From the IMG/VR virus record IMGVR_UViG_3300013121_000047, positions 1 to 64,000 of that record: 64,000 nt of DNA, one strand, 5' to 3'. The notes beneath the pieces are model-generated. The model had not been told where the DNA came from and did no database searches. It saw only the letters and a list, made by a program, of their open reading frames with translations. Below are positions 3,939 through 41,525 of the stretch, piece by piece. A program made the position numbers and the translations under genes. This DNA is from a virus (lineage: Duplodnaviria > Caudoviricetes). Numbering within the stretch: the stretch's first letter is position 1; every line of letters begins with the position of its first letter.

Positions 3939-4412
3939 TTAAAGTGATAAAATAGATTCAATCTCAATATTTGACAATTGTGAGTAATTTTCTTTTTTCA
4001 AATTAGACATTTTTAATCTGGCCGATGCTGCTAAAAGATATTTTAATGCGGGTGCAAGCTCAGCGCGAGTATAAAAGTTTGCTTCTAAAAGTTCTTTTAA
4101 AACGTCAATTAACAAACCAGGCTTATCTATTGCCTGTTCTATTGAGATTTCATGTGGTTCGCCATTTTTATCCATTAAATCAATAGAACCTTTTGTGACT
4201 AATTTTAAAATTTCTTCTTGTGTTAGTTTTCCGCCATAGTTTGGCAAATATTTGTTTTCACCTTTAAAAATTGAGGCAACCTGTCTTCTTATTCCATCCA
4301 AAAGTTTATTACTTGTTGTTACGACAGGATGAACCCCCGCTTGAAAACCAAGTTGTTTATATTGGTTATCTAAATCGCGGTTTTCAAAAATTAAATCATA
4401 AAGTTTTAACAT
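3939..4412 (-). CDS. Hypothetical protein with IFE leader (putative internal head protein)
   Basis: Starts MLKLYDLIFE; TATTTA 8 nt upstream. Confidence 0.6.
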   Translation of the reverse strand: MLKLYDLIFENRDLDNQYKQLGFQAGVHPVVTTSNKLLDGIRRQVASIFKGENKYLPNYGGKLTQEEILKLVTKGSIDLMDKNGEPHEISIEQAIDKPGLLIDVLKELLEANFYTRAELAPALKYLLAASARLKMSNLKKENYSQLSNIEIESILSL

Positions 4413-22635: not shown

Positions 22636-25600
22636 ATGGCAGATTTAACATTTAGAAGTCCTGGCGTAAATGTAAAAGAAATTGATATAAGTGGTGGTAC
22701 TGCTATACTACCTGCTGGCTTACCTGCGGTTGTAATTTCAACCACGCAAACAGGTCCAGCATTCGTTCCAGTTGTTGTTCCAACCTTAAAAGATTGGAGA
22801 ACATACTTCGGAGTTCCAGCAACTTATATTAATTTTGGAGCACTTGCAGCTACAGAATGGTTTAAAACCCAACAAGCTTTAACTCAAATAAGAGTATTGG
22901 GTGTCGGTGATGGCACACAACGAACAGACAGTGGAGATAATCGTGGAAAAGTAACAAGTGCTGGTTTCGTTGTCGGTGATCGCCAACCTCAGTCTAGTTT
23001 ATCTGGCGCTTTAGGAAGTAACGTTTATGCAAACACAGTATCTGCCGCACCAAATGCAACAGGTTCGGCTGGAAGAACTTACTTCTTGGGTTGTTACATG
23101 TCTCAAAGTAATGGGTCGTCATTTTTGTCAGAGGCTGGATTAAGTGGTTATGGGCAGCCAATTTTAAGAGGTGTTATCATGGCGGCCTCTGGCGTTATTC
23201 CAACACTTTCTTCATCAAGAGGTCCAGATTCTTCTATTCCAAATGCATCAACTTCAGCGGATTATTCAGCTGGAACAGTAAAAGGTTATATAACAGGTAC
23301 CGTTTACTTATCTGGTGGCTCTCAAGAATTCGTTGTTTTGTTAAATGGACATAAAGGAACGAGCGAATCTTATCCAAGAGCCCTAACCGCATCATTTGAT
23401 CCAACTGCTCCAAACTATTTGGGAACTGTTTTAAATAAAGATCCACTTAAATTAGAAGAAGCTGGATACGTTTTGTATTCTTACTATGATGTACATAGCT
23501 CACTTGCCGTACCAACAGGTTCAGGAATTATTGCTACAACAAGTGGTGGTATTCGAGAAAATATTGCATTTTTAGTTACAGGTGCGATGTCAAGAAACAG
23601 TGGTTCTTCAACAGCTCCAAACTACGAATCGTTTGAAGATAGATATCGTACTGCTCACACTCCGTGGTTCATTTCTCAGCGCCAAGGTGGATTATATCAA
23701 AACTTATTTAGATTCCATCTTATAAGTGATGGCGAAACAAACCCAGTTAAAGTAAGCATTGAAAACATTTCACCATCTACAAGTGATGTAAATCCATATG
23801 GAACATTTGATGTACTTGTTAGAGCATTTAGTGACACCGATAGCAACAAAGTCATTTTAGAAGCTTTTAGAGGTTTAACTCTAAATCCAAAATCTAGCAA
23901 ATATATCGCAAAACAAATTGGAGATAAAAATATTTATTACAATTTCGATGCATCTGAAGATCAACAAGGTTTATCAGAACCAGGAAATTATGATCTTCGT
24001 TCTAGATATATTCGTGTTGAAATGGATGAATTGGTTGATAACATAGAAACTGATTCAAGTTTACTTCCAATGGGTTTCCGTGGTCCACAACACCTTGTAA
24101 CTTCTGGAAGCGCTCCTATGCCAGCTTATTCAGATACCAGTCATTTACTTTCTCAAAATCCATTTAATAAAATGGTGGAACCTCCTATTCCTTTTAGAAC
24201 TGCAATTTCCAAAGGAACAGGAACAACTAAAACTGCTGACCGTAGTTTATATTGGGGCATTCAATTTGAAAATGTTGTATCTGTTAGTGAACCAAATAGT
24301 TCCAAAATTCCAAATAGAAGCTTAGTATCCAGAACTAAATATTTTCCAACTTTCCAGGTTGACTGGGCAAATTTTGCTGTTGATAATAACGAAGGTGTTG
24401 CCGACACAGCAGCAAATGGTATTTTGGATGCTGATAGGTTTAATAACAATTTATTCTCATTAGAAAAAATTAGAATTTATTATAACTCTACAACAAATCT
24501 TCCAAATACAAACCAGATTAAAAATTGGGCTTACGTTAGAGCAGGAAATATATCTACAGATACATCTGCTTTAACAAGAGCACTTCAAGTTTCTGATTTG
24601 CTTGAACCAACAACCAGAACCGTTGCTAAATTCACATGTTATTTCTACGGTGGATTTGACGGTGTAAGAATTTTTAACTTAGATACAAAATATCTTACAA
24701 ACAAAGCAATTGTCGAAGAAATGGTTTCTTCTAATAGAGGATTCTCTGATGGACCAACCGTTAAAGCATATAGAAAATCTTTAGATCTTGTTGCAGATTC
24801 CACAGAAGTTGATGGAAGACTGTTTGTTATCCCTGGTATTCGCCACGAAATTATTACTGACGCAGCAATTGATGTGGCAACACGATCAAGAAATGATATT
24901 TTCTATATTTTTGATCTTGAAGAAAAAGATACAAATGGAAATACTATAACAAGTGACACTCAAGATGTGTCTATTTCTCAAACAATTACAAATTTTAGAA
25001 ATCGTGGTCTTGATTCAAGTTATGCTGCGACATATTTCCCTGATGTTATAATTCAAGACTCTTATAATAAAGTTTCTGTAAGAGTCCCTCCGTCTGTTGC
25101 TGTGCTCGGAGCATATGGATTAAATGATCTTATAGGATATTCATGGTTTGCACCAGCAGGATTTACTCGTGGCGCTTTAAATAGTGTTGATAGAACTGCG
25201 CTAAGTATTAAACAAGAAAATCTAGATGATTTGTATCCAGAAAAAATAAATCCAATAACAGCATTTCCAGGTGAAGGCGTAAAAGTTTGGGGCCAAAAAA
25301 CGGTAAATGCAAGTGTTTCTTCTCTCGAAAGAATTAATGTTCGTAGATTATTACTTACACTACGAAGAAGAATACGTTTAATTTCGAAATCTGCACTTTT
25401 TGAACAGTACACAGATACTCTCTTACAAGAATTTTCTAAATTAGTAGAACCAGTATTAAAAGAAATACAAGATCTTGGCGGTTTAGAAAACTACAGAGTT
25501 TATATTAATAATCTAACAACAACTCAACTTGATAAAGAAAATCGAGTTATTAGAGGAAAAATTATCGTTCAACCAACAGAGTCGATTGAATTTATTGAGT

Positions 25601-25644
25601 CAACATTTGAGTTAACAAGAGGAAATGTTAATTTTACCGACTAA
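22636..25644 (+). CDS. Tail sheath protein 2 (gp18-like)
   Basis: SPGVNVKEID, GPAFVP, WFAPAGFTRG, INPI..FPGEG..VWGQKT, RINVRRLL. Confidence 0.92.
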   Translation: MADLTFRSPGVNVKEIDISGGTAILPAGLPAVVISTTQTGPAFVPVVVPTLKDWRTYFGVPATYINFGALAATEWFKTQQALTQIRVLGVGDGTQRTDSGDNRGKVTSAGFVVGDRQPQSSLSGALGSNVYANTVSAAPNATGSAGRTYFLGCYMSQSNGSSFLSEAGLSGYGQPILRGVIMAASGVIPTLSSSRGPDSSIPNASTSADYSAGTVKGYITGTVYLSGGSQEFVVLLNGHKGTSESYPRALTASFDPTAPNYLGTVLNKDPLKLEEAGYVLYSYYDVHSSLAVPTGSGIIATTSGGIRENIAFLVTGAMSRNSGSSTAPNYESFEDRYRTAHTPWFISQRQGGLYQNLFRFHLISDGETNPVKVSIENISPSTSDVNPYGTFDVLVRAFSDTDSNKVILEAFRGLTLNPKSSKYIAKQIGDKNIYYNFDASEDQQGLSEPGNYDLRSRYIRVEMDELVDNIETDSSLLPMGFRGPQHLVTSGSAPMPAYSDTSHLLSQNPFNKMVEPPIPFRTAISKGTGTTKTADRSLYWGIQFENVVSVSEPNSSKIPNRSLVSRTKYFPTFQVDWANFAVDNNEGVADTAANGILDADRFNNNLFSLEKIRIYYNSTTNLPNTNQIKNWAYVRAGNISTDTSALTRALQVSDLLEPTTRTVAKFTCYFYGGFDGVRIFNLDTKYLTNKAIVEEMVSSNRGFSDGPTVKAYRKSLDLVADSTEVDGRLFVIPGIRHEIITDAAIDVATRSRNDIFYIFDLEEKDTNGNTITSDTQDVSISQTITNFRNRGLDSSYAATYFPDVIIQDSYNKVSVRVPPSVAVLGAYGLNDLIGYSWFAPAGFTRGALNSVDRTALSIKQENLDDLYPEKINPITAFPGEGVKVWGQKTVNASVSSLERINVRRLLLTLRRRIRLISKSALFEQYTDTLLQEFSKLVEPVLKEIQDLGGLENYRVYINNLTTTQLDKENRVIRGKIIVQPTESIEFIESTFELTRGNVNFTD

Positions 25645-25729: not shown

Positions 25730-26218
25730 ATGGCAGAAACAATACCAGTCGGCAAAATGCAACCAGTAAAATGGGAGCCAGTTTTAAAAAATCGTGCAAT
25801 TCTTGAAATTGAAGGAGTTGATTACTTCTTTGTAAAAAGTTTTTCCGCACCAGAAGTGCAAGTTGAAAAAGCAGATATCCATTGGTTAAATGTCCAACGT
25901 AAAGTTGCAACAAAAATGACATTTCAACCAATGAATGTTACCTTGCACCAAGCAATAGCCCCTAGCGCTGGTCAACAAGTTCAAGAATGGCTCAGACTCT
26001 CAACAGAATATATTTCTGGAAGATCTGGATATATGGATTTTTATAAACGAGATATAACAATCAAAGTTCTCGATCCAGTTGGAAATGTTATTAACCGTTG
26101 GGAAATTCGTGGTGCGTTTTTAACATCCGCAAACTTTGGAGAATTCTCTCATGAATCCGCCGAACTTCAAGAAATTCAATTAACAATTGAATACGATGCA
26201 GCTACACAAACTTTTTGA
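25730..26218 (+). CDS. Tail tube protein (gp19-like)
   Basis: VQEW...YKRDITIKVLDPVG....WEIRGAF...FG......IQLTIEYD; follows sheath. Confidence 0.9.
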   Translation: MAETIPVGKMQPVKWEPVLKNRAILEIEGVDYFFVKSFSAPEVQVEKADIHWLNVQRKVATKMTFQPMNVTLHQAIAPSAGQQVQEWLRLSTEYISGRSGYMDFYKRDITIKVLDPVGNVINRWEIRGAFLTSANFGEFSHESAELQEIQLTIEYDAATQTF

Positions 26219-26274
26219 TATCTCCAATAATTTCAACCACTTAGACAGGTTTCTTAAAAAATCTTTTCATTAAA

Positions 26275-26328
26275 AAAAACCTTATGATCATACCTTGACT
26301 TTTTTGGTAACATGATCATAAGGTTTTT
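26275..26328 (+). promoter_or_regulatory. 17-bp inverted repeat enclosing a TTGACT -35 box upstream of the HNH gene
   Basis: AAAAACCTTATGATCAT / ATGATCATAAGGTTTTT. Confidence 0.65.
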
Positions 26329-26332
26329 AATT

Positions 26333-27280
26333 ATGAAAAAGAATGAGTTAGAAAAAGAAAACTCCAACTTAGAGCTTTCAGAAGAAGAAAAAAAGAAGAA
26401 CAAAACCTATAAGTGTCCTGAATGTGAAGTTTGTTTTAACCTAGATTCTTTGCGAATTCACTATTCAAAATCGCACAAAAAAACTTCAAGTGAATTATGT
26501 GTCAAATTATTTTACAATGGAATTGAACCGACTTGTAAATGTGGATGCGGCGGCAAAGTTTACTATTTTGGATTAACAATAGGATTTGGCTCTTATGTTA
26601 AAGGGCATCATGTTAGAGAATATGATAAAAACCCATGGAATAAAGAAAAAGGAATTGAAGCAAGAAGAAAATCTAACGAAACTCAAATGAGACTTTGCAA
26701 AGAAGGAAAGATAAAACTTTTTGGCGGAAAAGAACCTTGGAATAAAGGTAAAGTAAAGGCAACAGATCCTGATTATGCTGCTAGAATTAAATTTACAGAT
26801 ACAGAAGAATTCAAAAGAAAGAGTAGCGAAATTGGAAAAAGAAACTGGAAAGAAAATAAAATTCCAGTTTTAAAGGGTGAAAAATCTTACGTTTGGAAAG
26901 GTGGAGTGAGTTCTCTTAGTAAAATTTGCAGAGCCTCAAATCTTTTATATAAAAAATGGATTTATCCAAAACTTAAAGAAAATAATTTTTCTTGTCTTGA
27001 GTGTGGTGTTGCCGATAGCAATCTTGAAGTTCACCACGACAAAGAAAAATTTTCAGAAATTTTAAGAAAAATTGCAAAAGAGGAAGGTTGGCTTGAAAAA
27101 CACTTTCTAAGTGTAAGACTGGAAAATCCAGATAAAGAAACACTTGATTTAAAAGAAAAAATAGCTGACAAAGTTGCGGAATATCATATCCAAAACAATG
27201 TAAGTGGAATTCCCTTGTGTCAAAAATGTCACGAAAAGCAACATAAAAATTACAACATTAAAAAGAAAAAATCCTTATAA
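26333..27280 (+). mobile_element. Free-standing HNH homing endonuclease (C2H2-like finger, CKCGCG, PWNKG NUMOD3-like motifs)
   Basis: CPEC..H...H, CKCGCG, PWNK(E/G), CLECG..LEVHH...CQKCH; start chosen at ATG 26333. Confidence 0.75.
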
Positions 27281-27287
27281 TCACACC

Positions 27288-27316
27288 TTGACTTTTTGGG
27301 AACTTATTCATATAAT
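27288..27316 (+). promoter_or_regulatory. Near-consensus sigma70 promoter, leaderless transcript
   Basis: TTGACT-17nt-TATAAT, ATG at 27325. Confidence 0.75.
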
Positions 27317-27324
27317 GTTTTTTT

Positions 27325-27807
27325 ATGCAAACAGAAAAACAAGAGAAACGTTCTTCTCCATTTTTTAAAACATGGTATTGGTCAAGAGTACCTGGCAAAT
27401 TTATAGATAAAGAAACTGGGAAAGAGCCCGAAAGAACAACTCTAATAGCAGGGCCAATGTATACTGGAACAGTAAGAGAATGGGCTGAATTTCTTACTCT
27501 TATGGTATCAGATGCCTCAAACTATATTCAAGTTGAAAACGGAGTAAATCCATATACTGTTATAGCATTTAACCGACAAACAAAAACAACGAGTTATGTT
27601 GAGTGTTATAGTCCAATAAAACAAATAACAACTGGTTTAAATGGGAAAACAATACTAGAAATTTGTGTTGGTTATCGTTCTGCAAATGAATTTAACGGAA
27701 CACTAAATGAAAGAACAGAAGTTAAGTTTGATCCAATGTATCCAGAAGATGTTTTGGTTGTTGGAGAGTTTGGAAAAAATCCAATCTTAATTAAGGTCAT
27801 TGACTGA
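27325..27807 (+). CDS. Stand-alone paralog of the major capsid protein A-domain region
   Basis: YWSRVPGKFIDKETG...AGPMYTGTVREW vs MCP YWSRAPGKFVNKQTG...AGPAFTGTVREW; KFDPMYPEDVLVVG vs YRDPYFPRNKILIG. Confidence 0.85.
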   Translation: MQTEKQEKRSSPFFKTWYWSRVPGKFIDKETGKEPERTTLIAGPMYTGTVREWAEFLTLMVSDASNYIQVENGVNPYTVIAFNRQTKTTSYVECYSPIKQITTGLNGKTILEICVGYRSANEFNGTLNERTEVKFDPMYPEDVLVVGEFGKNPILIKVID

Positions 27808-27834
27808 CTCATAATGTAAGTTTAACTATCAAGT

Positions 27835-28371
27835 ATGGATAAAGTAAACCTTATAGGTATAAAAGACGAATATGGTTCATATTGTCAATATTGGCCTGTG
27901 AAACCTGGAACGATAGTTAATATACTAACAGGGCAAGTTATAGCAGATAATATTCCATCTATGTCACCACACGGGCGATTATTGTTAGTCGCCCCAACAA
28001 CTGAAAAAAAAGAAAATTTAAAGTTTTGGAATCACACATTTTTAGTAAGTTTAATAGAAATAACAGAATGGTTTGAAAATCAAAGTTTAGACAATTATAG
28101 TACTATTCTTGTCGGCACTTCTGGTTGGAAACTTTTTAAAGATTTAGAATTATTTAATTTTAAATTAAAAAATGATTTTAAAGCTGAAATAACATGTTCA
28201 AACTATTCAAAAGATCCTAAAACAGCAGAACCTATTAAAATTGAAACAACCTATGAAATAAAATATGAACCATATTTTAATATAGATTCTATTTTAATTG
28301 GAAACAGAGAACTCGGCCCCACTGTTATGATTAAGCTTCTATACACAGAGGAACTATTTGCAGATGGTTAA
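27835..28371 (+). CDS. Second, more divergent capsid A-domain-like paralog
   Basis: YWPVKPGTIVNILTG, STILVG, YEIKYEPYFNIDSILIG align to MCP motifs. Confidence 0.65.
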   Translation: MDKVNLIGIKDEYGSYCQYWPVKPGTIVNILTGQVIADNIPSMSPHGRLLLVAPTTEKKENLKFWNHTFLVSLIEITEWFENQSLDNYSTILVGTSGWKLFKDLELFNFKLKNDFKAEITCSNYSKDPKTAEPIKIETTYEIKYEPYFNIDSILIGNRELGPTVMIKLLYTEELFADG

Positions 28372-28813
28372 GTTTAAAAATTTAATTAAAGACAATGTTG
28401 GATTCTATAGTGTAGAATATGACGATTATTTGGCTTTTGCCCATGCTTTAGAAAAAAGTAAACAGCTATTCGAACACAATAAAGAAAGTATTGTATTAGA
28501 AACAAAATTACACGAAGAAATTATTAAAACTTACAAAACCAAAGATAATATAATTTATAATTTTCTGCAATTTTCTTCTATAGATTCGTCTAGTTCTTTC
28601 AAAGTAAGAGCAATTCCATTTAATGTCAAAAGTTTAACTTCAAGTGCTATAGAAACATATATGAGTTATATCGATATTTGGCTTCATGTTGATACCGCAA
28701 ATAAAACAACATCATATAAATTTTTTCAATATCCATATAAGAAAGAAGATTTTCTTTATATGGAAGATGAAATTGCACTTAGTATGGATAAGATTATAGG
28801 AATTGAGTTTTAA
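28358..28813 (+). CDS. Hypothetical protein, possibly a third very divergent A-domain-like copy
   Basis: Similar size, same operon, SYKFFQYPYKKEDFLYM at the equivalent position; likely start MVKF at 28364. Confidence 0.4.
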   Translation: MQMVKFKNLIKDNVGFYSVEYDDYLAFAHALEKSKQLFEHNKESIVLETKLHEEIIKTYKTKDNIIYNFLQFSSIDSSSSFKVRAIPFNVKSLTSSAIETYMSYIDIWLHVDTANKTTSYKFFQYPYKKEDFLYMEDEIALSMDKIIGIEF

Positions 28814-28879: not shown

Positions 28880-29542
28880 TTAAAATTTCTTGGTAAAACC
28901 ATAATCTAGAATAACAAAATCACCATTTCGTCTTCGTCCCCAATTTCGTAAGTATAAATCTCCTGGGTTGATATCACATCTACGAATAACTGATAAAAGT
29001 TGCTTTAGCCAAGGAGATTTCTTTCCAGAAGATGCTCTTTTTTGAGCAGTTAAAAATCCTAAAAATGCTCCAATAAACATTTCTCCTTCTAACTCGTAAT
29101 TGGTAATTTTCTCTTCTTCTCCGCCATAAGATTCAATCCATATTTCTGTATTAAGAAAGTCAGAACCTTCCAATTCTCCTTTTAGATATTCCACAAAAGA
29201 TAGTGTGTCTCTGGCTGGATTTAACCCTCTTACTTTTTCGGAAATTATCCAAGTATAACCAATCGTATCATATGCATATATTTTTGTTAAAAACTTATCT
29301 CCACCGCAAGTTTTAATTTCAACTTCTTTTTTTATTTCATGAGTTTCGTCTTCAGAAACTTTTAAAACATAGTCATCGTTTAATTGGTAGACTACTTTAA
29401 ATGATCCCGCTCCAATTTCTTTGCCCGCAAACAGCTCTTTAATTTCATCAACAGAACTATTGTTTAAAACAAAAACAAGTTCTTTCATTGTTTTTGGCAT
29501 TTTAGATATTGCCATTTCAAAAATAATTGATTTAATTTCCAT
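28880..29542 (-). CDS. Minimal protein-kinase-like protein with IFE leader
   Basis: Start MEIKSIIFE at 29542; IGAGSFKVVY, YVLKV, KKEVEI, DLYLRN, ILDYG. Confidence 0.8.
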   Translation of the reverse strand: MEIKSIIFEMAISKMPKTMKELVFVLNNSSVDEIKELFAGKEIGAGSFKVVYQLNDDYVLKVSEDETHEIKKEVEIKTCGGDKFLTKIYAYDTIGYTWIISEKVRGLNPARDTLSFVEYLKGELEGSDFLNTEIWIESYGGEEEKITNYELEGEMFIGAFLGFLTAQKRASSGKKSPWLKQLLSVIRRCDINPGDLYLRNWGRRRNGDFVILDYGFTKKF

Positions 29543-30152
29543 CTCTAAATCCTTCAAAACCGTAGTCTAATATAACTAATTCTTTTCTATCTCGTGTGCC
29601 CCAATTTTGGTAGTAAAGGTCATTTGGGTCAAGATCACAACCCTCAATTAATCTTAAAAGTTCCTTCAACCAGCGATTGGGAATAATCATTTCTAAATTT
29701 GGCAAGCGCAGCCACCTTACAAACTCTCGACCTATGCTACTTTGATTACTTTTTGAGTTGTTTAATAAAATCTCTGAGAGTCCTGTTCCTTTTAAAGAAG
29801 CCAATAGAAGAGTTTCAAATTCTTTTTCTGATATAGTGGACACTTGTTCGAAGACTGCCCAATTAAGGCTTATAGAGTCATATCCATAAATTTTAGTTAA
29901 AAGGTCAGATTGAAAACATTTAAAAATTTCAATTTCTTTTTTAAGCTCTTCGGAATCCTCTTTCGTTAGTTTTAACAAATATTTTCCTGGTGTGAAAGTC
30001 ATATACAGATTTTTGTTTTCTCCGCCTCCCACCTGGTTTAAAACATATTTTCTTTTTATTTCTTGGAAAGAAAGAGTTTTAAGATTTTCAATTTCTGAAT
30101 TGATATCTTTAAACCTTGTTATGTTTTCAAATATAAACTGTCTAAGTTTCAT
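29532..30152 (-). CDS. Minimal protein-kinase-like protein with IFE leader
   Basis: MKLRQFIFE; VGGGENKNLY, YLLKL, KKEIEI, DLYYQN, ILDYG. Confidence 0.8.
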   Translation of the reverse strand: MKLRQFIFENITRFKDINSEIENLKTLSFQEIKRKYVLNQVGGGENKNLYMTFTPGKYLLKLTKEDSEELKKEIEIFKCFQSDLLTKIYGYDSISLNWAVFEQVSTISEKEFETLLLASLKGTGLSEILLNNSKSNQSSIGREFVRWLRLPNLEMIIPNRWLKELLRLIEGCDLDPNDLYYQNWGTRDRKELVILDYGFEGFRDGN

Positions 30153-39623: not shown

Positions 39624-41525
39624 TTATATGACGTTCATGTCGAGAACTGTTATTACGCTGTAGAAGGATGGATTTACCATTTTCATCCCGTTACGGGTCA
39701 TTAGACCTCTACGTGGTGTAAAGTGTTCGGTATCATAAACTGTTGGTGTGAGAACCAATGGAATATAAGGAGCGAACACGAAACCTGATTCAAGGAATCC
39801 TGATCCTTTGAGACCGATGAGGATTTTGTTACGTGGGAAGTATGGATCGCGGTAAACAGTGAAACGACCAGCGATTGTTCCAACTGATTCTGCACCGACA
39901 CTCATTTGATCTGAAACTTGGCCATTTCCGTCAACTTTGTAGTTGGCTTTGTAACCTTGTGTCGCTTCAAGAATTGTGCTTACATCTGGGCCACAAACAA
40001 TGAAGTTACCTGAGCCGCGAAGTGTTTTGCGGTGAATTTCATTTGAGCAGTCGATGATTGTTTCGATGAGTGTTTCGTACCATTCTCTAACAGTTCCAGT
40101 GAATGCTGGACCCGCTGCGAGAGAGGCAGAACGTAATACTTCAGAACCTGTTTGTTTGTTAACGAATTTACCTGGAGCTCTTGACCAGTAGTATCTCGCG
40201 GCTTTCGCTTCGAGAAGTAATTGGTTAAGAATTTCGCGGTCGATTTCGAGAGTAACCATTTCTGAAATGATGTTGGTTAATTCAGCTTCAACATCCATTG
40301 AATAAAACGCGGACAAATCCTGTGCCATCTCAGGACTCCAGCGAGCGCGAAGTTTTCTTGCTTGCGCTGTAACAGCTGTTGATTCAATTTTGATTTCAAC
40401 TTCTGGAATCGCTGGTGTTGGTGGTGTTGCGAAATCAGATTCAAATGGAGAAAGTGTAAGTGCACTTCCATCTGTGTTAACAGTAAGAGAGTCACCAATT
40501 GCAGCAGACATTGTTACTGGACCTGCTGGTACTGCACCTGTATTACTTACAGCAACAACGAAAAGTACGTGTGTACCATTCAAGTGATCTGGTGTAAATG
40601 TTGAGGTAAGGTAGTTCCAGTTACCGCGTTGGTTAAGTTTACGGAGGTTTTTAACTGATTGGCCACCTTGGTAGGTAGAATCCCAGTTGGCAACGCCGTT
40701 AGCTGTTGTGAAACCAACGATAGCAAGTTGATCTACCGCACGAAGGTCAGCTCCTGGAATCTTTGTGAGAACTTCAGAAGATGAAACGAAGGCAAAGCAG
40801 TAGTCAAGGGCCGCGTTTTCAACATCTGTTGAGATTTTAGAATCATAGTCGATCCAACGAGCATTTAATCCAGTAACTTCCGCCGCTGTTGCAACTGTAT
40901 CTGCTGCTGTCCAAGAAGTACCTGATGCACCGAATGCACCGATGTCTGGAACAACTACAGTTGTTGCTGACTTGTGAACTTTTGAGAAACCAGTGTTTAC
41001 GTTATCATACATACCACCCGCCGCGTTTGTTCCGCTACGAATATCGGCACCTGATGGTGAACCGAAAAGTGATTGTCCTTTTTTGTATGTAGAGGCTGTG
41101 GCCGCATCACTTAAGCTTAAACCAGCTGTTCCACCAACGTTAGAACCATATGAGTAATCCATGTAGAAGATAAGTCCTGATGGAAGGCTCATTGGTTGAA
41201 CTGAAACTAATTCATTGGAAATTAATCCAGCGAAAAGTCTACGAACGATTGGGAACGCGATGGAAATAAAACCAGCAACCTGACCACTAGAAGCGAGTCC
41301 TGCTCCGCCTAATGAAAGCGCATTCGCTTCCATAAGAACTTGTGGGTTACGGATCATTTCAGCCGCTTGGTTTTCGAGCAAGCGCGCCATTTTTTGTTTC
41401 GCACCTTTGCTATTAAAACCGTCGAGTAAACCGTAATTGGCCCACTTATCGACTAAACGATCGTCCATTCCACGATTTGGATTAAGTTCTAAACCTTCTG
41501 ATAATTGTTGTAATGTAAAAGACAT
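39624..41525 (-). CDS. Major capsid protein (T4 gp23 family)
   Basis: ARLLENQ, VSVQPMSLPSGLIFY, ARKLRARWS.E.AQDL, EIDREI, YRDPY, FAPYIPL. Confidence 0.96.
   Translation of the reverse strand: MSFTLQQLSEGLELNPNRGMDDRLVDKWANYGLLDGFNSKGAKQKMARLLENQAAEMIRNPQVLMEANALSLGGAGLASSGQVAGFISIAFPIVRRLFAGLISNELVSVQPMSLPSGLIFYMDYSYGSNVGGTAGLSLSDAATASTYKKGQSLFGSPSGADIRSGTNAAGGMYDNVNTGFSKVHKSATTVVVPDIGAFGASGTSWTAADTVATAAEVTGLNARWIDYDSKISTDVENAALDYCFAFVSSSEVLTKIPGADLRAVDQLAIVGFTTANGVANWDSTYQGGQSVKNLRKLNQRGNWNYLTSTFTPDHLNGTHVLFVVAVSNTGAVPAGPVTMSAAIGDSLTVNTDGSALTLSPFESDFATPPTPAIPEVEIKIESTAVTAQARKLRARWSPEMAQDLSAFYSMDVEAELTNIISEMVTLEIDREILNQLLLEAKAARYYWSRAPGKFVNKQTGSEVLRSASLAAGPAFTGTVREWYETLIETIIDCSNEIHRKTLRGSGNFIVCGPDVSTILEATQGYKANYKVDGNGQVSDQMSVGAESVGTIAGRFTVYRDPYFPRNKILIGLKGSGFLESGFVFAPYIPLVLTPTVYDTEHFTPRRGLMTRNGMKMVNPSFYSVITVLDMNVI

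What the first reader, a model, noticed from the sequence alone, without database searches (positions are those of the whole stretch)
27288..28813. Early-type operon of stand-alone major-capsid A-domain copies: candidate capsid decoys
Seen: ORF 27325-27807 aligns colinearly with MCP residues ~444-571 plus the last strand. Matches: YWSRVPGKFIDKETG/YWSRAPGKFVNKQTG, AGPMYTGTVREW/AGPAFTGTVREW, KTILEICVGYRS/STILEATQGYKA, GTLNERTEVKFDPMYPEDVLVVG/GTIAGRFTVYRDPYFPRNKILIG, LIKVID/VITVLD. ORF 27835-28371 is a more diverged copy (YWPVKPGTIVNILTG; YEPYFNIDSILIG), and 28358-28813 may be a third. The N-arm, E-loop and P-domain needed for lattice assembly are absent. The operon has a TTGACT-17-TATAAT host-type promoter rather than the late motif. 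Known: several defences are triggered by major capsid proteins (CapRel, Lit via the gp23 Gol peptide, PifA). Inference: pre-emptively made, diversified mimics that occupy capsid sensors without activating them. Alternatives are dominant-negative inhibitors of competitor capsid assembly, or assembly chaperones.
Basis: partly seen in the sequence, partly recalled or inferred. Interest (0 to 1): 0.9.

Follow-up and report, generated by a model that had tools for sequence, protein, structure and literature searches.

The report
Free-standing capsid A-domain gene family
Two small neighbouring genes of an uncultured giant T4-like phage encode only the "A-domain" of the phage's own major capsid protein, and they belong to a large, unnamed family of such capsid-domain-only proteins whose job (mimic, assembly modulator or something else) is still unknown.

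Summary
The core observation holds for two of the three genes. ORF1 (27325-27807) matches residues 445-575 of the window's own gp23-type major capsid protein (MCP, 39624-41525, minus strand) at E = 4e-19. It also keeps the MCP's last strand and lacks the P-domain hairpin. ORF2 (27835-28371) is a diverged copy, supported by profile E = 1.4e-5 and by a fold search that returns almost only HK97-fold capsid proteins. ORF3 shows no capsid similarity.

The three-gene cassette is conserved in four phage lineages. It is under purifying selection (dN/dS 0.13-0.25) but evolves far faster than the MCP: 30-50% versus 96% identity for the same pair of phages.

A profile search shows a bigger picture. At least about 85 clusters of 120-245-aa metagenomic proteins have the same architecture: they start just before the YWSRxPGKFVNKxTG motif, lack the hairpin and end in VLDMNII. 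Their genes lie in replication modules, next to NAD-salvage genes, or beside the MCP gene. I found no name or paper for this family.

The function is not shown. The decoy idea is neither supported nor refuted. The "early promoter" is a single consensus match that is not conserved in the more distant relatives. No earlier scan note on other DNA described this family.

The parts
27325..27807 (+). ORF1, 160 aa: free-standing gp23 A-domain. It begins 16 residues before the YWSRxPGKF motif and ends with the MCP's last strand, with no P-domain hairpin.
   Evidence: BLASTP to MCP 445-575, E = 4e-19. Alignment A1. Independent family profile E = 5e-28. dN/dS 0.25 against L005.
27835..28371 (+). ORF2, 178 aa: strongly diverged second free-standing A-domain (YWPVKPG...TG; YEPYFNIDSILIG).
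   Evidence: BLASTP E = 1e-4. Profile hits. AlphaFold model pLDDT 71.8. VIA-align top hits are HK97-fold capsid proteins, Z up to 9.2. Top Atlas hit is the Gp23 cluster, TM 0.58. dN/dS 0.16.
28364..28813 (+). ORF3, 149 aa from the ATG at 28364, which overlaps the ORF2 stop in ATGGTTAA. It always follows ORF2 in the lineage but is not a detectable capsid-domain copy.
   Evidence: No match to MCP, ORF1 or ORF2. Low-confidence model, best Z 4.9, no capsid hit. Four related clusters only, all in this lineage. dN/dS 0.13. Overlap read from sequence.
27288..27316 (+). TTGACT-17-TATAAT sigma-70-like match upstream of ORF1. The -10 hexamer ends 8 nt before the start codon.
   Evidence: 11 of 12. Conserved in close relatives L005, L007, L008 and L009, but not in L003 or L012. 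No enrichment of such sites in the window.
26312..27280 (+). HNH homing-endonuclease-like gene inserted between the tail-tube gene and ORF1. The likely true start is 26334.
   Evidence: PHROG 8048 HNH endonuclease, E = 5e-4. Inverted in L003. Split into two ORFs in L012. Flanked by 35-nt direct repeats.
26273..26307 (.). Left copy of a 35-nt direct repeat that brackets the HNH gene and contains the TTGACT hexamer.
   Evidence: the repeat finder family D1, 89% identity, spacing 993 nt.
27266..27300 (.). Right copy of the 35-nt direct repeat, overlapping the -35 element of the ORF1 promoter-like site.
39801..40196 (-). Segment of the MCP gene (residues 444-575) that encodes the A-domain. It is the parental counterpart of ORF1 and ORF2.
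   Evidence: It aligns to mature T4 gp23 chain residues ~254-375.
39624..41525 (-). Full major capsid protein gene, 633 aa, gp23 family.
   Evidence: Pfam PF07068 E = 3.4e-72. PDB sequence hits to T4 gp23 structures, E ~1e-29.

Best explanation
ORF1 and ORF2 are functional members of a large, so far unnamed family of free-standing A-domain proteins derived from the gp23-type major capsid protein of one clade of uncultured large myoviruses.

Each protein is the segment that follows the spine helix plus the final beta-strand. The intervening P-domain hairpin is cleanly removed, and there is no N-arm, E-loop or P-domain, so it cannot be a lattice subunit.

The most likely role (inferred, not shown) is a soluble mimic of the capsid A-domain used in an accessory, conflict-type function. 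In this reading it occupies a partner that normally recognises the conserved YWSRxPGKFVNKxTG / GTVREW face of newly made capsid protein. That partner could be a host sensor, a chaperone, a protease or a phage factor. The rest of the domain, especially the A-loop, diversifies. ORF3 is a lineage-specific co-transcribed partner of unknown fold.
For: Shown:
- Homology of ORF1 and ORF2 to the MCP A-domain.
- The family exists. A profile search of 1.84 billion representatives gave 201 hits. Of the best 150, 130 are under 300 aa and only 20 are 360 aa or longer, most of them full-length 560-670-aa MCPs.
- In the short proteins the motif starts at residue 5-20 and the motif-to-end distance is 116-150 aa, against 178-191 aa in MCPs. 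They end in V.VLDMNII like the MCP.
- Purifying selection: dN/dS 0.13-0.25.
- Synteny of the cassette in four lineages.
- Much faster divergence than the MCP: 50, 38 and 31% versus 95.7% identity for the same phage pair. Short proteins sit on long branches, while the MCPs form one tight clade.
- Gene turnover: a third, split copy in the complete 390-kb relative G001.
- The shared motif is kept at protein level, not DNA level, so it is not recent gene conversion.

Context consistent with an accessory or conflict role:
- One member overlaps dUTPase inside a replication module.
- Three members sit next to UDP-glucose dehydrogenase. In two of these contexts NadM-Nudix follows, and in one of those NAMPT as well. 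NAMPT plus NMNAT is the NARP2 anti-defence pathway (bioRxiv 10.1101/2024.02.11.579819).
- Homing endonucleases flank the cassette.
Against: - No binding partner is known, and no expression or virion data exist.
- The conserved motifs may simply be the folding core of the A-domain rather than a recognition face.
- In G003 and in the P0017 contig the gene lies just downstream of the MCP gene on the same strand. This is compatible with late expression and a capsid-associated role.
- Most partial genomes of the clade that I checked show only the MCP, so the gene is dispensable.
- For sensors such as CapRel and CmdTAC, binding of capsid protein is itself the activating event (PMC9712102, PMC11618068), so a mimic could trigger rather than block them.
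Confidence: 0.4

Rival explanations
1. Capsid-assembly modulator. The free A-domain binds the A-domain interfaces of MCP monomers or capsomers. It could act as a chaperone or cap that delays premature oligomerisation of the phage's own MCP, or as a dominant-negative poison of co-infecting relatives or satellites.
For: An isolated A-domain keeps both intracapsomer faces but none of the elements that link capsomers (established HK97-fold knowledge). Some members sit directly beside the MCP gene, as gp24 sits beside gp23 in T4. Homing endonucleases next to the cassette point to inter-phage competition.
Against: The MCP is 96% identical between two phages whose ORF1, ORF2 and ORF3 are only 50, 38 and 31% identical. 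The cassette is therefore not co-evolving with its own MCP, and a poison aimed at near-identical competitor MCPs would also hit the phage's own. Many genomes of the clade appear to lack the gene, which argues against a core chaperone.
Confidence: 0.25
2. Minor virion component. The A-domain-only protein decorates or plugs capsomers (for example at hexamer centres or a special vertex) and is made late.
For: In the window the cassette lies downstream of the sheath and tube genes on the same strand, and read-through cannot be excluded. Positions adjacent to the MCP gene occur in other phages.
Against: It lacks every lattice-forming element. Its genomic positions are very variable, including replication and metabolic modules. 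It diverges fast while the MCP surface it would bind is conserved. The candidate late motif ATATTTA is absent upstream of ORF1.
Confidence: 0.12
3. Exapted scaffold. The A-domain fold has been recruited as a stable alpha/beta module for a function unrelated to capsids, such as host take-over. N-terminal extensions and loop insertions would provide the activity.
For: Sub-classes carry ~100-aa N-terminal extensions, long Pro/Glu-rich inserts, or CxxC-containing A-loops. Minimal kinase-like genes recur as neighbours.
Against: The best-conserved positions of the family are the same ones that are nearly invariant in MCPs: W19, S20, G24, G32 and W53 of ORF1 correspond to W447, S448, G452, G460 and W482 of the MCP. 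This suggests a constraint still shared with the capsid protein.
Confidence: 0.18
4. Decaying remnants. ORF1 and ORF2 are non-functional fragments of capsid genes carried along by homing-endonuclease traffic.
For: HNH and GIY-YIG genes flank the cassette, and a 35-nt repeat brackets the HNH gene. A split copy exists in G001.
Against: The frames are intact with conserved starts and ends in four lineages, with dN/dS 0.13-0.25. The same precise domain architecture is seen in dozens of deep lineages. The neighbouring HNH gene decays (it is split in L012) while the cassette stays intact.
Confidence: 0.05

Closest known systems
T4 gp24 vertex protein (paralog of the gp23 major capsid protein; PDB 1YUE)
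   Same: It arose by duplication of the MCP gene and is encoded in the same phage as a gp23-type MCP. The ORF2 model aligns to gp24 with Z 6.5.
   Different: gp24 keeps the whole HK97 fold and is a lattice subunit (pentamers). ORF1 and ORF2 keep only the A-domain and cannot join a lattice. No full-length gp24-like paralog was found in the 185-kb record or in the complete relative G001.
Satellite-encoded capsid-redirecting proteins: Ccm of cos-type PICIs, an HK97-fold MCP homolog (recalled from memory), and the external scaffold TcaP of the V. cholerae PLE satellite (PDB 8G1R, listed)
   Same: These are MCP-related or MCP-binding proteins made outside the normal capsid gene set to interfere with capsid assembly. 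This corresponds to the 'dominant-negative' rival explanation.
   Different: They belong to satellites, not to the phage itself. Ccm is a full-length HK97-fold protein. No A-domain-only form is described.
Phage-protein triggers of capsid-sensing immunity: CapRel SJ46 (PMC9712102) and CmdTAC (PMC11618068)
   Same: They show that hosts do recognise newly made major capsid protein, which is the premise of the decoy idea.
   Different: In both systems, binding of the capsid protein activates the toxin. No capsid-fragment inhibitor is reported in the papers I could search.
Pfam PF07068 (Gp23 major capsid protein family)
   Same: A few family members reach or approach the Pfam threshold over profile positions ~216-315, which is the A-domain part.
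   Different: ORF1, ORF2 and most relatives give no Pfam, PHROG or NCBIfam hit at all. The family covers only about a quarter of the Gp23 model.

Membership tests
HK97-fold major capsid protein (gp23 family, PF07068) | A-domain: the helix-strand-helix core after the spine helix, plus the C-terminal strand | tested here: met
   ORF1: E = 4e-19 to MCP 445-575 plus the last strand. ORF2: profile hits plus a fold match to the A-domain half of HK97-fold capsid proteins.
HK97-fold major capsid protein (gp23 family, PF07068) | N-arm, E-loop, spine helix and P-domain, including the P-domain hairpin that interrupts the A-domain | tested here: not met
   ORF1 starts at the position of MCP residue ~430-445 and lacks MCP residues 576-620. 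The motif-to-end distance is 116-150 aa in the family, against 178-191 aa in MCPs.
HK97-fold major capsid protein (gp23 family, PF07068) | Score above the Pfam gathering threshold | tested here: not met
   No Pfam hit for ORF1, ORF2 or ORF3 at E <= 0.1.
Free-standing gp23 A-domain family (defined in this report) | Own start codon within ~20 residues upstream of the YWSRxPGKFVNKxTG motif. GTVREW helix present. No P-domain hairpin. C-terminal V.V(L/I)D strand. | tested here: met
   ORF1 meets all four features. A profile built without the ORF1 sub-family scores ORF1 at E = 5e-28.
Free-standing gp23 A-domain family (defined in this report) | The same features, applied to ORF2 | tested here: met
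   The motif is degenerate (YWPVKPGTIVNILTG) and the GTVREW helix is not recognisable by sequence. Still, the profile gives E = 1.4e-5 with the next hit at ~1. The G001 ortholog is hit at 3.2e-6. The fold agrees.
Free-standing gp23 A-domain family (defined in this report) | The same features, applied to ORF3 | tested here: inconclusive
   No sequence or profile match. The model is too poor (pLDDT 56) to exclude the fold.
Anti-defence decoy or inhibitor of capsid-sensing immunity | Binds a host sensor of the MCP without activating it; made before the MCP; absent from virions | not testable with these tools
   The host and its defence systems are unknown. Promoter evidence is weak.

The most novel reading that the evidence does not exclude
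The free-standing A-domains are the first phage-encoded mimics of a structural-protein 'PAMP'. In this reading they keep the invariant capsid epitope (YWSRxPGKFVNKxTG / GTVREW). They act as competitive, non-activating ligands for host immune sensors or chaperone-based toxin-antitoxin systems that detect newly made major capsid protein. The result would be a widespread anti-defence strategy in giant uncultured myoviruses.
Probability: 0.15. Interest if true: 0.9.

Novelty: new variant of a known kind. Interest (0 to 1): 0.66.

Why it matters
Capsid-protein paralogs known so far, such as T4 gp24 and the satellite protein Ccm, keep the whole HK97 fold. This family is different. One domain has been cut out cleanly, is kept under selection, is duplicated, fused and diversified, and has spread over at least about 85 sequence clusters in uncultured large phages.

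Three consequences follow:
- The HK97 A-domain can probably fold and function on its own.
- The family gives a handle on what recognises newly made capsid protein in infected cells, whether immunity, chaperones or assembly factors.
- It provides a concrete, testable candidate for either capsid-sensor evasion or assembly interference.

It also gives annotators a rule. Short gp23-like hits of 120-245 aa that lack the P-domain hairpin are real genes, not fragments.

Tried and rejected
- **Foldseek against the PDB with the ORF2 model:** no significant match. The capsid fold appeared only with VIA-align wide and the Atlas.
- **hhalign between small family alignments:** ORF1 versus ORF2 was weak (E = 2.5e-4, probability 43%). 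ORF3 versus either gave nothing.
- **Complex prediction of MCP 345-633 with ORF1, both as alignments:** verdict 'no answer', score 0.00. This is not evidence either way.
- **Cultured phages:** tblastn of ORF1 and of family member P0021 against 50,697 phage records found only the MCP of the uncultured phage LR756508. That record has no free-standing copy. No cultured model is at hand.
- **The protein-atlas search with ORF1:** no usable hit.
- **Word-indexed search with the family alignment:** returned mostly MCP fragments from ~1-kb contigs. I did not use it for counting.
- **Viral-contig scan with the family alignment:** the 80 loci kept were almost all full MCP genes. L071 is a frameshifted MCP, not a free-standing copy.
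- **Recent gene conversion as the source of the shared motif:** rejected, because synonymous sites differ.
- **Reading the cassette as pseudogenes:** rejected on dN/dS and conservation.
Full report
**Setting.** The window is the first 64 kb of a 185-kb IMG/VR virus record that CheckV rates about 51% complete. It has about 31% G+C. It carries a T4-like structural module:
- a 1002-aa sheath-sized gene at 22636-25644
- the gp19 tail tube gene at 25730-26218 (Pfam PF06841)
- a gp23-family major capsid protein (MCP) at 39624-41525 on the minus strand (PF07068, E = 3.4e-72)
- a 650-aa acidic gene, presumably the scaffold, upstream of the MCP gene

The closest cultured phages are distant: Flavobacterium phage immuto at 43% MCP identity and Microcystis phage Mel-JY01 at 33%. 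A related IMG/VR record, G001, is complete. It is 390,884 bp long, has direct terminal repeats, and its MCP is 96% identical. The phage is therefore a jumbo myovirus with an unknown host.

**The observation.** ORF1 (160 aa) aligns colinearly with MCP residues 445-575 at 34% identity and E = 4e-19. The multiple alignment shows that ORF1 starts just after the MCP spine helix. It skips MCP residues ~576-620 and rejoins the MCP for the last strand: NPILIKVID versus NPSFYSVITVLD.
- By sequence alignment to solved T4 gp23, this MCP segment corresponds to mature gp23 residues ~254-375.
- In the HK97 fold, by established knowledge, the A-domain is exactly this: the segment after the spine helix plus the C-terminal strand, interrupted by a P-domain hairpin.

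ORF2 (178 aa) is much more diverged, but several independent lines agree:
- BLASTP to MCP 446-602 gives E = 1e-4.
- Its family profile hits the same MCP segment.
- A profile of free-standing relatives built without the ORF1 sub-family scores it at E = 1.4e-5, with the next of the window's 314 ORFs at E ~1.
- Its AlphaFold model (pLDDT 71.8) returns almost only HK97-fold capsid and encapsulin chains, aligned over their C-terminal halves. Examples are P1 at Z 9.2, lambda at 8.1, T4 gp23 residues 310-521 at 7.1, and gp24 at 6.5.
- Its best ESM-Atlas cluster is a Gp23 family (TM 0.58).
- Foldseek alone found nothing.

ORF3 (149 aa from the ATG at 28364, overlapping the ORF2 stop in ATGGTTAA) has no detectable relation to the MCP, ORF1 or ORF2. 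Its model is poor (pLDDT 56), with a best Z of 4.9 to unrelated folds.

**Are these real genes?** The three-gene cassette sits in the same place, after the tail tube gene, in four lineages: the window, L005-L009 (~90% identity), L003, and L012/G001.
- Against the close relative, dN/dS is 0.25, 0.16 and 0.13 for ORF1, ORF2 and ORF3.
- Against L003, the MCP is 95.7% identical and the sheath and tube ~89%. ORF1, ORF2 and ORF3 are only 50, 38 and 31% identical.

The cassette is under purifying selection but evolves far faster than the virion genes.

**The neighbouring HNH gene behaves like a mobile element.** It is inverted in L003 and split into two ORFs in L012, and a GIY-YIG gene follows the cassette in L005, L007 and L008. 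In the window the HNH gene is bracketed by a 35-nt direct repeat.

**A large family.** An HMM of the ORF1 family, searched against 1.84 billion representative proteins, gave 201 hits at E <= 1e-3.
- Of the best 150, only 20 are 360 aa or longer, most of them full-length 560-670-aa MCPs. The other 130 are shorter than 300 aa.
- These short proteins begin with Met and 4-20 residues, then YWSRxPGKFVNKxTG ... GPxFTGTVREWYETLVETIID ... DVxTILExSVLYKP ... GTLxNRFxV. They end in V.VLDMNII, the same ending as the MCP.
- The distance from the motif to the C-terminus is 116-150 aa, against 178-191 aa in MCPs. The P-domain hairpin is therefore missing in all of them.
- They are not contig-end fragments. 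Real MCP fragments keep the hairpin, and they dominated a separate word-indexed search.

I distinguish three classes:
- a minimal class of 120-180 aa
- a class with a ~100-aa N-terminal extension, 230-245 aa
- a class with long Pro/Glu-rich inserts, 190-265 aa

In a FastTree of the shared region, the full-length MCPs form one tight, well-supported clade with short branches. The free-standing proteins form many deep, long-branched lineages. That pattern fits an old origin followed by fast divergence. It does not fit repeated recent copying of the resident MCP. The resolution is low, however (142 columns).

None of the members I looked up carries a name or accession annotation beyond "hypothetical protein". 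Pfam, PHROGs and NCBIfam mostly miss them. My literature searches found no description.

**Distribution and context.** The MCP clade is common in IMG/VR, with at least 585 matching stretches. Among nine large records searched, only G001, G003 and G009 show free-standing copies, and most of the other six are 36-52% complete. The published 484-kb uncultured phage LR756508 has none.

G001 has ORF1 and ORF2 plus a third copy that is split into 70-aa and 94-aa ORFs. This is evidence of gene turnover.

Neighbourhoods vary:
- inside a replication module, overlapping the dUTPase stop and followed by 5'-3' exonuclease, DnaB and RNR genes (L029)
- next to a UDP-glucose dehydrogenase gene in three contigs, with NadM-Nudix following in two of them and NAMPT in one; NAMPT plus NMNAT is the NARP2 NAD-reconstitution counter-defence pathway (bioRxiv 10.1101/2024.02.11.579819)
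- two genes after the MCP gene, behind a NUMOD3 endonuclease gene
- in G003, directly between the MCP gene and a minimal kinase-like gene; that gene is homologous (E = 2e-15) to the window's 28880-29557 gene, which lies next to the cassette

**Expression timing.** The TTGACT-17-TATAAT match at 27288-27316 is real and is conserved in the close relatives. Several points weaken it as evidence of early expression:
- It is absent upstream of ORF1 in L003 and L012.
- Its -10 element ends 8 nt before the ATG, so any transcript would be nearly leaderless.
- Matches of this quality are not enriched in the window: 2 observed against 5.4 in shuffles.

The candidate late motif ATATTTA is enriched upstream of genes (7 observed against 1.1 expected, though intergenic AT-richness confounds this). 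It is absent before ORF1. Timing therefore remains open. Family members in other phages point both ways, to the replication module and to the position just after the MCP gene.

**Mechanism.** What is shown is that these are soluble-sized, selected, rapidly diversifying proteins made only of the capsid A-domain, and that they cannot form a lattice. What is inferred is the role.
- The positions best conserved in the family are the same ones that are nearly invariant in MCPs: W19, S20, G24, G32 and W53 of ORF1 correspond to W447, S448, G452, G460 and W482 of the MCP.
- The shared motif is kept at the protein level, not the DNA level.
- The A-loop region varies in length and often carries a CxxC pair.

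My preferred reading (about 0.4) is an A-domain mimic with an accessory, conflict-type function. It would occupy something that recognises the conserved face of new capsid protein.

I put it at about 0.15, because in CapRel and CmdTAC the binding of capsid protein is itself the trigger (PMC9712102, PMC11618068).

The assembly-modulator rival (0.25) is weakened by the lack of co-evolution with the almost invariant MCP. A virion-component role (0.12) and an exapted scaffold (0.18) remain possible. Neutral decay is essentially excluded. A co-folding test of ORF1 with the MCP core returned no verdict.

**Verdict.** The finding generalises to a sizeable, undescribed protein family, which is the main result. 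It is a new variant of a known kind (capsid-protein paralogs), of above-average interest.

Noticed in passing
window 26273-26307 and 27266-27300: A 35-nt direct repeat (89% identical, 993 nt apart) brackets the HNH endonuclease gene. The left copy lies in the loop of a 28-nt inverted repeat just after the tail-tube gene. This looks like the footprint of a mobile HNH cassette. The same gene is inverted in L003 and split in L012.
   Followed up: partly
L019:1050-1596 (minus strand; G001 ~330.8-331.3 kb): The complete relative G001 has a third free-standing A-domain copy split into a 70-aa ORF (YYWSRCPGKIVNKYTGNE motif) and a 94-aa ORF ending VQIIDMPIL. This is probably a recently broken copy, or a two-piece form.
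   Followed up: partly
L020:1207-1665 (G001) and G000:C1:116335-116790 (outside the window): A 152-aa ORF carries FSFAPYIPLV, nearly identical to the MCP P-domain hairpin motif FVFAPYIPLV. Its counterpart in the window's genome is 36% identical and is interrupted by two stop codons. This may be another capsid-derived peptide, or chance.
   Followed up: no
L094:2049-4569; L077:2809-5244; 345-kb ENA contig of P0023: In three unrelated contigs the free-standing A-domain gene is next to a UDP-glucose/GDP-mannose dehydrogenase-like gene. In two of them a NadM-Nudix gene follows, and in the P0023 contig NAMPT follows as well, giving a NARP2-like NAD-salvage block.
   Followed up: partly
L110:553-2055 (G003) and window 28880-30152: A minimal kinase-like gene ending in DYGF lies immediately after the A-domain gene in G003. 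It is homologous (E = 2e-15) to the kinase-like paralogs that abut the cassette in the window. This is a recurring neighbour across very different genome layouts.
   Followed up: partly
alignment A8 (family members P0021, P0024, P0030, P0043, P0099, P0120): Many family members carry a CxxC pair inside the variable A-loop region, and a conserved Cys in the ILECSVLY helix. This could be a small metal site that is absent from the MCPs.
   Followed up: no
window 28364-28813: The low-confidence ORF3 model gives its best, weak matches (Z 4.4-4.6) to p32/Mam33/gC1qR-type proteins. The protein is mildly acidic (pI 5.6). This is too weak to call.
   Followed up: partly
window, upstream of genes at 3939, 16699, 25730, 38570, 46327, 48440 and 48909: ATATTTA occurs 7 times within 60 nt upstream of gene starts, against 1.1 expected from its overall frequency. 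It is a candidate (late?) promoter element. AT-rich intergenic composition may inflate the enrichment.
   Followed up: partly
L071:1614-3570: In one IMG/VR contig the MCP gene itself is broken into 497-aa and 94-aa ORFs, by a frameshift or an assembly error. This is a reminder that short gp23-like ORFs must be checked for the hairpin before being called free-standing copies.
   Followed up: no
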